The notes beneath the pieces were generated by a model. That model was not told the DNA's origin, searched no databases, and saw only the letters and a list, made by a program, of their open reading frames with translations. The position numbers and the translations under genes are program-made. Below, one piece after another: positions 11,486-51,175 of a stretch of 64,000 bases of DNA; position 1 is the first letter of the stretch; each line of letters begins with the position of its first letter. The DNA is taken from assembly GCF_009914755.1 (NCBI RefSeq), contig NC_060927.1; one strand, written 5' to 3'. Source of the stretch: the human T2T-CHM13v2.0 reference genome, Homo sapiens.

Positions 11486-12306
11486 TATTTCCAGTATTTT
11501 TTTAAGTCACCCATATCTTTTGGTGTTTTACTGCCTACAAGTGATCATCCATATCGGTACTAAGACATTTATTAGCGTATATTTGTCAGGGAATCCTAAC
11601 TCATAAAGTTCAAGAGTTAAAAACAATGAAGAAAATAATACATGTCAAAAGCCTACATTAAAATCAAGATTTAACCTGCCTTTACAAAAACTATACACTG
11701 TCATTTTAAACCCTTGAGAGATTCTTGATGAGAAAAGCCTAGGTTCAGTACTCTGTGAATAAAGGTTAAGTGGAAAATTACGTGGGGTCAAAACCCAGTA
11801 TCTCCCACAGTTCAGATTTCTGACCATAATACAGGGTGAGTTAGCATGTAACTTCTAAAAATTATAGGGCAAACTAGAAACTAGCTCATCTGAATTATTT
11901 TTGCTTCTAAAGAAAAGGAAACCACCAAGAACTGAAATTTGTCTTTTAATTAAAGAAGCTTCCGCTGTCACTTCTTTCCTTACTCACTGAAATTGCTTAA
12001 CACTCAGACCTTTGGTTTCATGGATCTTCATCAATATTTATTCTTGTAATAGAAATAATAATTTTAAAACCCCACAATTCCTAAACTTCAGCCTAGATGT
12101 CAATGAATCACCCAAGAGGCTGACAATCTAAATATACTATAAGTGAAACCTATGCCATACAGTGAATAAAAACAGAAATCACAGCTACTTACATTGTTTA
12201 CTATTACATTTCAAGAATGAGTAATTATTTAGCCTCTCAAAGAAGATTTCCCCCAAGTTTTATAGACCTGCCCTGAAATTTTGGGAAAAAAAAATTAAGT
12301 ACATAC

Positions 12307-12345
12307 CCGCACTCCTGAGGTGAAATGTCCTGTTCCTGACGAATC
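12307..12345 (-). CDS. GSK3B: GSK3B alternative 39-nt cassette exon (exon 8b/9), DSSGTGHFTSGVR, the 13-aa insert of neuronal GSK3beta2
   Basis: GAT TCG TCA GGA ACA GGA CAT TTC ACC TCA GGA GTG CGG between tttAG and GTATGT; phase 0/0; matches the known beta2 insert after K303. Confidence 0.96.
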
Positions 12346-12961
12346 CTAAAGATGATAATGCAGTGAAATAATCCAAACAGGGGAAGTCAATCCAAAAGAG
12401 AATAGTCCAGCAAGGAAAAATATATCCAATGTTATAAGAAATCCATGGTGTGGGGGGGGACATAGAAAATGTTTATACAGTTATAAACTTTAAACATCAG
12501 TCTTCACAGTAGCAAGTCCAAGTTTTAAAAATTATTTCACCACAGTGTATGCAAAAAAATTTTTTTTGATTGTGCAATGGTGAGGCACAGTAAAGAAACA
12601 TTTTAATTTTAGTTTATTATGTTCCAATGCCAGTGCGTTTATTAAAAAAATACAAAACCAAAAAAAGTTAAAATCAAAATGAAATCTAGAAGTAAAGTTC
12701 CCAAAGTAAAATGGTCTTCTATGACCTGGATTCATCATCCACAGACATGGCTGGGAGGGGGCATATTAGCCTGCTTTTAAAGTTTCAAGTTCCCAATATG
12801 CTACTTTTTTCTCTATTAATGTGTTCCAGTTACACAGTATAAACATTTTTTTGCTAAGTTATTAGTGATGAGAGGAAAGTAATAAATATATTTAAGTTAT
12901 ATTACTATAGATTTCAAGCCAGATACTTTCAATTTGTGTGAGCTAAGAAGGATCAGGCCAC

Positions 12962-13092
12962 CGCGGATTATTCTCCATTTTGGATTGACTTCTCTGCTAA
13001 AAGATGTTTCTTTGCTGACATTCTCATTATCTTAGGACTCATCAGGAAATTGACATATCACCTCAGGAGTGCGGGTATTAACTTACTTTTTC
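12962..13092 (+). repeat. Inverted copy of the GSK3B 39-nt exon with its flanking splice-site regions (partner arm about 12287-12411)
   Basis: 13036-13074 matches the exon sense sequence at 33/39 nt; 13058-13078 is a perfect 21-nt reverse complement of 12303-12323; 12978-12992 is a perfect 15-nt reverse complement of 12383-12397. Confidence 0.93.
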
Positions 13093-13765
13093 TATTGTGG
13101 GCTTTGCCCGCTCATACCCTTGCACCCGGTACTTAGGAAAAATAAATAGAGAACATTTTTTCCTCTTTGGAAAAACTCTCTGAAAAAATAAATCCTACAT
13201 CTTCCAGCACTACAAATTAAACACAGTTCCATCTGCAAATATGCCCAATTCACCCACCAAAAGCTAAACAAAATATATAAAATTAACAATACAACTAAGG
13301 GACAGTCACAGTTACAGGTGACAGGCATAGTAATGTATACCAACACCTAGGCACAACGGAGCCAAATATGCAAGGGAGGTAGCAGGGTCTATTATGTCTA
13401 GGTATTGAGAACAAAAAATGGCAGAACTCACCAGTATCTGTGAACTCCCCTGGCTATTCTAAGAGAATTTAACATTCTTTTAGGATAGTTTCCAGTGGGG
13501 GAATTAAATATTTTTCAAAAATAAATAATCCGCGGATTACTTTTAGTCTGCAGACTAAAATTTAGTACACAGATTAAAATCTGGCCCATCAGAATAAATT
13601 CTCTCATGAACTAAAACACAACCAGGTGGACAAAAATAGAAAACCAGACTGAAAGAACTGAGAGCACAAAATAAGACTCAACTGGGCCAACTAACAATTA
13701 GTACGCAGACTAAATATGGCCAGCGAAGTATGCAGCAAGGCCACAGAGATCCCAAAACACCCCTT

Positions 13766-23819: not shown

Positions 23820-24740
23820 AACTTTCAGAACTTCATTCAAATTTTAAAAAGTTTGTTCTTTAAAAGACACTCTTAAGAAAATGAAAAGGCTAGTCACGAA
23901 CTTTGCAGAATATATTTGCAAAATATATTCTGCAAAGGGCTTGTATTTACAATATATAAAGAACTCTTATAATTCAAAAATAAGACAAACCAATACAAAT
24001 CAGTAAAAGATATGTACAGACACTTCACCAAGGATGACAGAGAGATGGCAAATAAGCACAAGAAAAGATGCTTGGCATCATTAATCATTAGGGAAATGCT
24101 AATTAAAACAAGATACCACCATATACCCAATAAGAAGGCTAAAATTAAAGACTATGTATAACAAATCTTGGCAAGGATGTACAGCAACTGAAGCTCTCAC
24201 CATTGATGGTGGAAATGTGAAATGGTATATAGCACCTTGGAAAACAGTTTGGAAGTTTCTTAAAAGTTAAACATATACATATCATACAACCCATCATTCT
24301 CACTCCTAGGTACATACCCAAGAGAAATGAATGCACATGTTCATACAAAGACTTGTATACAAATATGCATAGCATATTTTTTTTAACTGCTAAACAGTAG
24401 AAACAAACCAAAATGGCATCATCAAGTAAATAAATGGTACATAGCCATACAGTAAAACATTACTCAGTAATTTAAAAAGAACAACATGGATGAATCTAAA
24501 AATAATTAAGCTGAGTGAGAGAAGCCAGACCAAAAAGAGTACCTAAAGTATAATCACATTCATATGGAATTCTAGTAAATTTTCTATCTATAGTGACAGA
24601 AGATCTATAGTTTTGAGAAGCAAGATTACAAAGGGACACTAGGAAACTACTGGGATTATGAATGTTCATTATCTTGGTTTCACGGGTGTAAGCGTATGGA
24701 AAAACTTATCAAGTTGAATACTTTAAATATGTGCAGTTTT
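23820..24740 (+). mobile_element. Old L1M (L1ME/MC-type) 3' region, resuming at about 26170-26212 after a nested insertion
   Basis: Degenerate ORF2 3' and 3'UTR motifs; TATGTG(C/T)AGTTT duplicated at about 24728 and 26172. Confidence 0.7.
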
Positions 24741-24744
24741 AAAA

Positions 24745-26168
<1,424 letters not shown>

Positions 26169-48712: not shown

Positions 48713-51004
48713 GGACCAGTAAGATTTGGGGCTACATTAAACACACACACACAACACTCTTATGAAGTTTATTAACCTTCATGCAATAAGACTTAGAACT
48801 ATACTAAACATATACACACTTGCACAAAATACAAAGCCTAGAGCCTCCGTGCAATGTGTGGTAACTTCCAGTCAATAAATGGATGGTAAACTACTACTGG
48901 TAATTCCATCTATCCTGGGCAGCCACGGTCAAGAACATAGAAGGCACCTAGAAACCAGATATCCCAAAATGCCCTGGATGCTTGGAAATACTTACAGTTC
49001 TCTTATCTTATATCATTATCAAAACTTTCTATAAGCAGTGATTTTGGAACTTACTTACTATAGTAAGGTGATAAGTACATTTCTTAAGTATAAATGCAAG
49101 ATGACAGCATAGCACATAAATGATGAGTGTTTTATTTCAGAGTTGGCCTGCTACTACATATTGATCACGGACCATTTTGGAAAAAATAAGCACTTAATGA
49201 AAATGAAGTCTGAAATTATCAGTAACAAAATATATTAATAGCAGGTAGCATAAAATAGTATTAGCAGAAAATGAATTACAAGGACTAACAAAAAGTTGTA
49301 CAAACAAGCTCTAGACTTAAAGATTTATAAGGTATTACGGCAAGCATGAGATAGGGAATTATCACAGATGCTCACTTAGCTTCCTCAGAAATTCTACTTG
49401 CATTATGTATGAATTAAAATTAATGACAAATCGCCACAAAATTCTAAAATATAATCAGTAGAGAAATGATACAATTGTAATGAGCTAAACATATATGACA
49501 AATAGAATAGCTAATATGCCCACAGAATTGTAGCATGGTGATGGTGAGCTCAAGTACGTCAAATAAAAGCCTAGGGACAGGAGAAATGCTGAATGGTTGT
49601 GTAAGAGCAGAGACCAGGAAACTACAGCCCATTGTCTGTGTGAAGCCCATAAGCTAAGAATTAACAGATTTGCCATCAATTTGATGATTAGAAAGTACTA
49701 ACTTTGAACATCAATTAAGAGAAAGGTTATATTTCCCCAAAAAGAACTCAATTCTTCTGGTTAGTAGAGCTGTATTTAAAAATAAAAATAAAAAAAAGAC
49801 TCAATTATTATACCTCTAACTTCATCAATAAAAAAATTTGTGAAAATGTGTTTTCTCTTTTGTTACTGAGTACCTATATGATATCCTCGATTTTGCCTTT
49901 TGGCCCACAAAGCCTAAAATATTTTATCTAGTCCTTTACAGAAAAAGTTGGCCAAGCTCCGTATTCAAGCATTAATTTACATGATGGGGTAGGCTTTTAG
50001 AAAATAAAGAAAGCAAACTATTCAAATTTACATCTAAGTGTAGCACAGAAATGAAAAAGAAAATAGTTCTGTTAACAAGTGTAAAAGATTAGATAGGAAA
50101 CTCAAAAATGGTACCAAAAAGAAGATGCAAATACCACAGTGGTCTAAGCTGCAAATTGTAAGAAATTATATGGATAATAAAGAAGATCGCTTATTACACA
50201 CTAGTCTTTTCAACCATACTTGCACACACTGACATCTAGCAAAACCACCTTTGATTTTTAAAATTCCTATTTTTATAGAATGAAGTACAAGGATTTGAAA
50301 AGAACTTGATCACAGTCCTATGTTCAACTGGTAGAAGCTACTGAGGAGTTACAGCTCAGTACAATAAAAACTAAATTCAAGCTGTCCAATACAGAATAAG
50401 CTGCATCCCTAAGTAGTAATCTGATGCTGGAAGTGTTCAAGAAAATACTAGAAAACCATTTGTTAGGAATGTAACTAAAAGGTTATTTTATTGTACATTG
50501 GACAACATGACCTCTAAGGAGATTTTTCAATTTTACAATTCTATGCAAAATTTGGGATATCACAAACAAAGCCCCAGAGACAGTAGGTGTTGTTGCTTTG
50601 TCCAAACTGAAACCTTAGAATGAAACAATCTAGTGATATAAATCTAGACACTAGGTTTTTTTTTTTTTTTTAAGTAAAGGGACTTCCTTTAAGATCTCAA
50701 ATATTTAAAACTTAAAAAAATTACATTTAAAAACTCAATTAAAATCTCAGCTCTACTGTTCTTAAAAGAAAACATATATTCTAAGATAATATTTAAATAT
50801 TTGTTAATAAAGGTGTATGTATGCAAAGCTGAATGAAAGCAGAAGCTGTGTCTGAGCAAAACCAGACATATCTTTATTCAGCTTTAAATAAAATTTAAAA
50901 TAAATAAAATTATATTAAATTCATATAGACCCAATAAATAAAATTATATTAAATCCATAAGTCAAAATTTTGTTTCTATCAATGATCTAGCCAGACAGGT
51001 AGGC

Positions 51005-51175
51005 ATTCATTCTTTCATTTTATAAATACTGAATAAATATAAATAGTGACCAAATACAAGTATCTCCTATGTGCTCCACAGAGTATTAGGAGCAGGGAGT
51101 ATACAGTGAGCAAAAGCAGACACAGCTTCTGCTTTTATTCAGCTTACATACATTTTAGTGAGCTTATAGTCTAAT
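51005..51175 (-). mobile_element. L2 3' end fragment
   Basis: CATTCATTC start, CCTATGTGC...AGGAGCAGGGAGTATACAGTGAGCAAAAGCAGACACAG...GAGCTTATAGTCTA. Confidence 0.6.

What the first reader, a model, noticed from the sequence alone, without database searches (positions are those of the whole stretch)
12400..12990. The interval between the arms is itself a decayed, colinear palindrome (about 800-nt fold-back)
Seen: nested inverted matches continue inward in order. These are GAAATCCATGG 12438-12448 with CTATAGATTTC 12905-12915 (9/11), AAAATGTTTATAC 12466-12478 with GTATAAACATTTT 12837-12849 (13/13), AGTAGCA 12508-12514 with TGCTACT 12799-12805, and CATTTTAATTTTAGTT 12599-12614 with AGTTAAAATCAAAATG 12666-12681 (13/16). 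The symmetry axis drifts from about 12690 to 12640. Similarity is highest at the exon and decays inward. Inference: an ancient fold-back duplication or hairpin-type repeat (MITE or Eulor/UCON-like) in which one arm was exonised, or the exon was duplicated, and only the exon-pairing part stayed constrained. This could explain the origin of the beta2 insert. The inner matches are short and AT-rich, so each is weak alone.
Basis: partly seen in the sequence, partly recalled or inferred. Interest (0 to 1): 0.7.

Follow-up and report, generated by a model that had tools for sequence, protein, structure and literature searches.

The report
Antisense exon copy in GSK3B intron
A conserved upside-down copy of GSK3B's brain-enriched 39-base exon lies 620 bases upstream in the same intron and is predicted to pair with the exon, likely hiding it from splicing; the DNA between the two copies holds only scattered short mirror matches, too few to show a decayed palindrome.

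Summary
The four inner matches exist as stated, but the 556-nt interval is not a recognisable decayed palindrome. Gapped alignment, pair-HMM and folding are at shuffle level. Spacers between matches show no homology, and similarity ends abruptly at 12408/12965. A post hoc test gave 0-1 of 3000 shuffles and 5 of 466 real windows after grid correction.

The solid feature is the outer pair. 12965-13091 is an inverted copy of GSK3B exon 8b/9 with its predicted branch point and both splice sites. Two unnamed non-human records carry an orthologue of this arm, conserved over about 12922-13135 and not inward of it. The exon's peptide is invariant across amniote records. No dispersed repeat family was found, and GSK3A has no such arm.

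Best reading: a long-range pre-mRNA duplex that likely represses the exon (0.6), with a mostly free loop. A relic 800-nt fold-back stays possible (0.25). Ten literature searches found no description of the duplex.

The parts
12307..12345 (-). GSK3B alternative exon 8b/9, 39 nt, 13-residue beta2 insert
   Evidence: annotation; translation; identical peptide in all 21 rows that hold it whole (19, 2 more)
12290..12408 (-). exon arm: predicted branch point region, 3' splice site, exon, 5' splice site
   Evidence: blastn E 5e-16 to the intron arm; alignment A2
12965..13091 (-). intron arm: antisense copy of the exon arm, upstream in the transcript
   Evidence: orthologue in P0126/P0127
12303..12323 (-). 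21-bp perfect helix with 13058-13078, covering the last 17 exon bases and the first 4 intron bases
   Evidence: the 21-mer occurs exactly twice in the genome
12334..12349 (-). 16-bp helix with 13032-13047 (two G.U on the transcript), covering the 3' splice site
12383..12397 (-). 15-bp perfect helix with 12978-12992, covering the predicted branch point (A at 12388)
   Evidence: the branch point is a match to a recalled consensus, not mapped
12922..12964 (-). conserved segment inside the loop with no partner on the left side; role unknown
   Evidence: at least 1 difference in 27 nt to P0126 at 12922-12948; no homology to 12409-12437
13092..13135 (-). conserved upstream element with a sense near-copy of the exon's 5' splice site; predicted competing hairpin with 13068-13078
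   Evidence: conserved in P0126; pairing probability 0.93-0.95 before the exon's 5' splice site is made; z only -1.15, 31 of 500 shuffles
12466..12478 (.). 13-nt perfect inverted match with 12837-12849, the strongest inner island
   Evidence: predicted pairing probability 0.17
12418..12605 (.). left side of five perfect islands on axis 12652.5-12657.5 (12418-25, 12466-78, 12508-14, 12524-30, 12599-605); partners lie in 12707-12893
   Evidence: post hoc; spacers at random level
12409..12921 (-). remainder of the loop, 32% GC over 12409-12964, no continuous self-homology
   Evidence: 12880-12921 not conserved in P0126

Best explanation
An inverted copy of GSK3B exon 8b/9 and its splice signals lies 620 bases upstream in the intron, is conserved in other genomes, and is predicted to pair with the exon in the pre-mRNA, likely hiding it from the spliceosome so that it is skipped by default. 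SHOWN: the two arms, their overlap with both splice sites, conservation of the arm, and lack of continuous self-homology in the loop. PREDICTED: a duplex of about 110 bp (-142 kcal/mol) whose three best helices cover the 5' splice site, the 3' splice site and the branch point. INFERRED: repression as the direction of effect; release in neurons by RNA-binding proteins, editing or folding kinetics; origin by an old inverted duplication of at least 125 nt. The interval between the arms is mostly a free loop. Its short mirror matches are largely chance matches in AT-rich sequence, with the 13-mer and its axis left unexplained.
For: Arms: E 5e-16; fold z -10.8, 0 of 20 shuffles; pair probability 0.90-0.93. 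Not neutral decay: 2 transitions and 7 transversions in the 60-nt block (p 0.008-0.025); both transitions are G.U on the transcript; mismatches are clustered, 417 of 20000. Orthologue: two hits in 1.84 billion proteins, E 2e-7 and 4e-7. Minimum differences to human are 1/27, 1/39, 5/48, 0/9, 1/12 and 1/15 nt over 12922-13135, against 21/42 just inward. Between the two records, 39 of 41 residues are identical in the arm and 55 of 74 in the flank, Fisher p 0.005. The orthologous arm needs at least 4 changes to the human exon arm in 51 nt (the human arm has 8) and keeps the same mismatch at 13057. Predicted unpaired probability with versus without the arm: 3' splice site 0.10 vs 0.66, branch point 0.00 vs 0.70. 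The isoform is minor and brain-enriched (PMC3391277, PMC4198110; passages). The exon responds to DDX5/DDX17 helicases (PMC3936752; passages and section 13).
Against: No experiment shows pairing or repression. DDX5/17 depletion RAISES inclusion, the opposite of what simple unwinding of a repressive duplex predicts; it fits only if the helicases help the duplex form. The 5' splice site is predicted paired with or without the arm (unpaired 0.22 vs 0.13). There is no overall preference for the transcribed strand: MFE -249.0 vs -252.7, and the inner half of the arms is better on the other strand. PCCRs generally avoid branch points (PMC8052449, passages). The orthologue is known only from chance translations, so nucleotide distances are minima, the taxon is unknown and no compensatory pair could be counted. 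The tight-axis islands argue against the loop being wholly free.
Confidence: 0.6

Rival explanations
1. One reading: 12290-13091 is one old fold-back duplication, and the inner islands on axis about 12656 are its remnants or selected helices of a longer irregular stem, with 12894-12964 as a one-sided bulge. This is compatible with the outer duplex being functional.
For: Five nested perfect islands, 42 nt in all, lie within 5 nt of axis: 0 of 600, 0 of 600 and 0 of 239 controls. Over a 12-setting grid, the corrected values are 0 of 3000 shuffles of each kind and 5 of 466 real windows. The two sides have nearly equal length (188 and 187 nt). Trimmed to the islands, the transcript-strand duplex is reached by 0 of 100 shuffles, the other strand by 14 of 100. 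Tests lose power beyond 1.0 substitutions per site.
Against: The statistic was chosen after seeing the list, and it was about the sixth kind of test tried. It is weak at several settings (144-296 of 3000 at minimum length 6 with W 20 or 40). Spacer identity is 9/36, 8/29 and 25/84, all at shuffle level. The untrimmed duplex is reached by 17-37 of 100 shuffles. Enforcing the islands costs 15.6 kcal/mol. The on-axis share of short matches is not enriched (25-96 of 300). No simulated fold-back gave this mix (0 of 250 in each of 10 settings).
Confidence: 0.25
2. The duplex is kept mainly as a double-stranded platform for ADAR or other dsRNA-binding proteins, and its effect on the exon is indirect or positive.
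For: Seven A.C mismatches on the transcript within the arms. Reviews state that ADAR1 drives GSK3B mis-splicing in leukaemia progenitors (PMC7043046, PMC13243261, PMC12187073; passages).
Against: No A.C mismatch lies inside the exon. GSK3B is absent from the searched supplements of the human recoding atlas (two files not searched) and of PMC5991522 (13 of 24 files not searched). The primary papers were not held, and GSK3B introns carry many Alu pairs that could explain an ADAR1 effect.
Confidence: 0.2
3. The element is an exapted hairpin-type transposon relic (MITE, Eulor or UCON kind) whose terminal inverted repeats are the arms.
For: The geometry is two 125-nt arms with a spacer. The exon is absent from fish-named rows, from the one amphibian row and from GSK3A. 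That such families date to this period is recalled, from no call.
Against: No other human copy by DNA search. The 21-mer with up to 3 mismatches gave 21 places, 2 of them the arms, against 21 for the control pattern. The second core pattern gave only the two arms. These searches are word-seeded and weak for old repeats.
Confidence: 0.1
4. The arm is a neutral inverted duplication kept similar by DNA-level template switching between the arms, without RNA function.
For: Patchy perfect blocks and no overall strand preference.
Against: The arm and its unpaired flanks are more conserved than neighbouring sequence, and one mismatch is shared with the orthologue instead of being corrected.
Confidence: 0.07

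Closest known systems
[quoted passage not shown]
   Same: A conserved intronic element complementary to a splice region of a weakly used exon; splice sites inside the double strand.
   Different: The partner is a copy of the whole exon with both splice sites and the predicted branch point, about 125 nt. The PCCR method leaves out exon sequence beyond 10 nt and reports avoidance of branch points.
ADAR editing-complementary sequences (exon-intron duplexes; examples recalled, from no call)
   Same: A long imperfect exon-intron duplex with A.C mismatches.
   Different: No editing evidence was found, no A.C mismatch lies in the exon, and the partner lies upstream and spans both splice sites.
Competing docking/selector structures (Dscam1, ATE1; search listing)
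   Same: Possible competition between a local hairpin (13092-13135) and the long-range duplex.
   Different: This is a single cassette exon, and the competing helix is not beyond shuffles.
Ancient palindromic repeats and MITEs (Eulor, UCON, MER; recalled)
   Same: Inverted arms around a spacer, old and conserved.
   Different: No dispersed copies were found, and the inner part is not continuously palindromic.

Membership tests
Conserved long-range splicing structure (PCCR kind) | Near-perfect complementarity within one pre-mRNA | tested here: met
Conserved long-range splicing structure (PCCR kind) | Both partners conserved across vertebrates | tested here: met
   exon peptide across named amniotes; intron arm in two unnamed records; taxon of those records unknown
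Conserved long-range splicing structure (PCCR kind) | Compensatory substitutions | not testable with these tools
   no orthologous DNA on hand
Conserved long-range splicing structure (PCCR kind) | Splicing changes when pairing is broken | not testable with these tools
   needs an experiment
Decayed fold-back duplication of about 800 nt | Residual homology between the anchors | tested here: not met
   power is full only up to about 0.6 substitutions per site
Decayed fold-back duplication of about 800 nt | Colinear inverted matches beyond chance | tested here: inconclusive
   chain p about 0.02-0.03; tight-axis p from under 0.001 to 0.01, post hoc
Decayed fold-back duplication of about 800 nt | Inner and outer parts of the same age | not testable with these tools
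   P0126 reaches only about 85 nt into the loop
MITE / Eulor / UCON repeat | Dispersed copies in the genome | tested here: not met
   low sensitivity for old repeats
MITE / Eulor / UCON repeat | Match to a Dfam or Repbase family; target-site duplication | not testable with these tools
   no repeat library; target-site duplication not examined
ADAR substrate (editing-complementary sequence) | A-to-I editing in the duplex | tested here: inconclusive
   not in the searched supplements, parts unseen; A.C mismatches present
Known Rfam RNA | Score at the gathering threshold | tested here: not met
   one match at E 0.43, outside the feature

The most novel reading that the evidence does not exclude
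The GSK3 beta2 exon was born from one arm of an amniote-age fold-back duplication, and its sister arm was kept for over 300 million years as a built-in antisense silencer. The silencer is wired as a three-part RNA switch: upstream decoy copy of the 5' splice site, antisense arm, exon. DDX5/DDX17 would flip it from the local hairpin to the long duplex, and the tight-axis islands would be the fossil or functional continuation of the stem.
Probability: 0.15. Interest if true: 0.82.

Novelty: new variant of a known kind. Interest (0 to 1): 0.55.

Why it matters
GSK3 beta2 is a brain-enriched isoform of a major kinase with reduced activity (PMC3936752, passages), and the papers seen name no cis element that controls its exon. 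A conserved antisense copy of the whole exon gives a precise element to mutate or block with an oligonucleotide. It also offers a testable link to two reported effects, DDX5/17-dependent skipping and ADAR1-linked mis-splicing. The inner-palindrome claim matters mainly for how the exon arose, and there the evidence is weak.

Tried and rejected
Mirror-orientation control of the chain score: 77 of 300. Rfam: nothing. GSK3A: the equivalent intron is about 427 nt with no inverted repeat. Word-indexed protein search for the arm's chance frame: no candidate. A profile search of the human genome for old copies could not be run, so sensitivity to repeat families is limited. Real-window controls come only from 264 kb around GSK3B. 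Literature: 10 searches gave no paper whose listing describes the duplex. GSK3B was not found in the supplements held for PMC8052449 (5 files, 246 thousand characters, too small to be the full PCCR catalogue), PMC10691357, PMC8897444 or PMC5991522; none was readable for PMC10573301. The two primary leukaemia papers were not held.

Full report
Setting. GSK3B runs on the minus strand. The alternative 39-nt exon (8b or 9) is 12307-12345 and encodes the 13-residue beta2 insert. The finding concerns the 556-nt interval 12409-12964 between two inverted arms.

Observation. The four inner matches are present at the stated places and identities. The outer arms 12290-12408 and 12965-13091 align at 75-76% (E 5e-16), and the 841-nt region folds at z -10.8. 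The inner interval alone folds at z -0.63, 28 of 100 shuffles.

Tests for continuous inner homology were negative. Three permissive local schemes were reached by 150-223 of 500 dinucleotide shuffles; two strict schemes picked only the 13-16-mer, 13-14 of 500. A pair-HMM anchored at the outer arms was reached by 30-122 of 150 controls. Similarity therefore ends abruptly; it does not fade inward. Simulated fold-backs were detected 60 of 60 times by alignment up to 0.6 substitutions per site, about half the time at 1.0, and 5-12 of 60 times at 1.3. A young fold-back is excluded and a saturated one is not.

Tests for chains of short matches were weakly positive. A chain score gave 2-30 of 120 or fewer depending on settings. 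Averaged over 12 settings it gave 6 of 300 shuffles and 7 of 239 GC-matched real windows, out of 452 windows before GC matching. Masking the 13-mer removed the excess (113 of 300); masking the best segment in both observed and controls gave 33 of 200. The interval has more short inverted matches overall, many in A/T tracts, and their on-axis share is not enriched.

One result goes against my reading. Five perfect islands (8, 13, 7, 7 and 7 nt) are nested on axis 12652.5-12657.5. No control reached this at W 10 (0 of 600, 600 and 239). After correction over a 12-setting grid the counts were 0 of 3000 for each shuffle type and 5 of 466 half-overlapping real windows. I defined this statistic after seeing the list. 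Spacers on this axis are at random level, and the untrimmed duplex energy is ordinary, although the island-trimmed one is not on the transcript strand (0 of 100). Neither uniform nor patchy decay reproduced tight islands together with a null-level alignment score (0 of 250 in each of 10 settings). I leave it unexplained and give the fold-back reading 0.25.

The outer pair. The intron arm is an antisense copy of the stretch from the predicted branch point to the 5' splice site. Its best helices are 21 bp over the 5' splice site, 16 bp over the 3' splice site and 15 bp over a branch-point consensus match at 12388 (consensus recalled). In the 60-nt ungapped block, 7 of 9 differences are transversions and both transitions give G.U on the transcript; over the whole arms the count is 12 transitions and 14 transversions, with no strand preference. 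The arm lowers predicted accessibility of the 3' splice site and branch point but not of the 5' splice site, which is predicted paired anyway.

Age. Of 120 proteins listed, 19 hold the whole insert and 2 hold part of it; a second search added 2. All whole copies are identical. They are named from placental mammals, a marsupial, birds and squamates. No fish-named row has it, nor does the single amphibian row; clustering at 90% makes absence weak evidence. GSK3A's equivalent intron is about 427 nt with no inverted repeat.

Conservation of the arm. A chance open frame crosses the intron arm. Searched against 1.84 billion unnamed proteins, it found two records, P0126 and P0127, whose flanks match the intron arm and not the exon arm. 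Minimum nucleotide differences from human are 9 in 150 over six blocks in 12922-13135, but 21 in 42 over 12880-12921, which is shuffle level (46 of 300 with one indel). The two records agree at 39 of 41 residues in the arm and 55 of 74 in the flank. Their arm is closer to the exon than the human arm is, which points to a near-perfect ancestral inverted copy of about 125 nt. Their taxon is unknown, and distances from peptides are lower bounds.

Repeat family. No other human copy was found by DNA or pattern search, and Rfam gave nothing. No repeat library was available.

Mechanism. The arm is transcribed first. It is predicted to pair locally with a conserved upstream element (13092-13135) until the exon's 5' splice site appears, then to switch to the long duplex. 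The local hairpin is not beyond shuffles and is a lead only. Repression by the long duplex is inferred from the signals it covers and from the isoform being minor and brain-enriched (PMC3391277, PMC4198110; passages). DDX5/17 depletion raises inclusion (PMC3936752; passages and section 13). That contradicts simple unwinding and fits only a chaperone role in forming the duplex; whether GSK3B was among the exons rescued by wild-type helicase is not stated in the text I saw. Reviews report ADAR1-linked GSK3B mis-splicing (PMC7043046, PMC13243261, PMC12187073; passages), but the primary papers were not held and no link to this duplex is shown.

Novelty. It works like a conserved long-range splicing structure and meets the two features I could test. 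It differs in copying the whole exon with both splice sites. Ten searches found no description. The full PCCR catalogue, RIC-seq tables and editing databases were not seen and may list parts of it.

Verdict. The conserved antisense exon copy is real and likely regulatory. Interest 0.55.

Noticed in passing
window 13210-13269: A further conserved patch 120 nt beyond the arm: at least 10 differences in 60 nt to P0126, next best placement 23.
   Followed up: partly
window 13086 and 13120 (minus strand): Two 5' splice-site-like sequences at and just upstream of the intron arm's start; possible decoys.
   Followed up: no
window 12360-12362 and 12861-12866 (minus strand): A UGC 17 nt before the 3' splice site, as in SRRM4-type microexons, and a QKI or branch-point-like motif in the loop (motif meanings recalled).
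   Followed up: no
window 13523-13579 and 13697-13715: Two adjacent 20-nt palindromes (18/20 and 20/20) and three 19-nt direct repeats; no other human copy found.
   Followed up: partly
L026 (G000:C10:18959709-18959828): A GSK3B-like processed pseudogene piece with stops that joins exon 8 to exon 9 without the 39-nt exon.
   Followed up: partly
window 24005-24331 / 25664-25998 and 50817-50854 / 51117-51153: Two other inverted pairs not labelled Alu-like, 68% over 342 columns and 92% over 38 nt; probably repeat-derived.
   Followed up: no
P0069, P0071, P0117, P0121: Several bird and squamate gene models place a further 29-37 residues after the insert; real extra exons or model errors.
   Followed up: no
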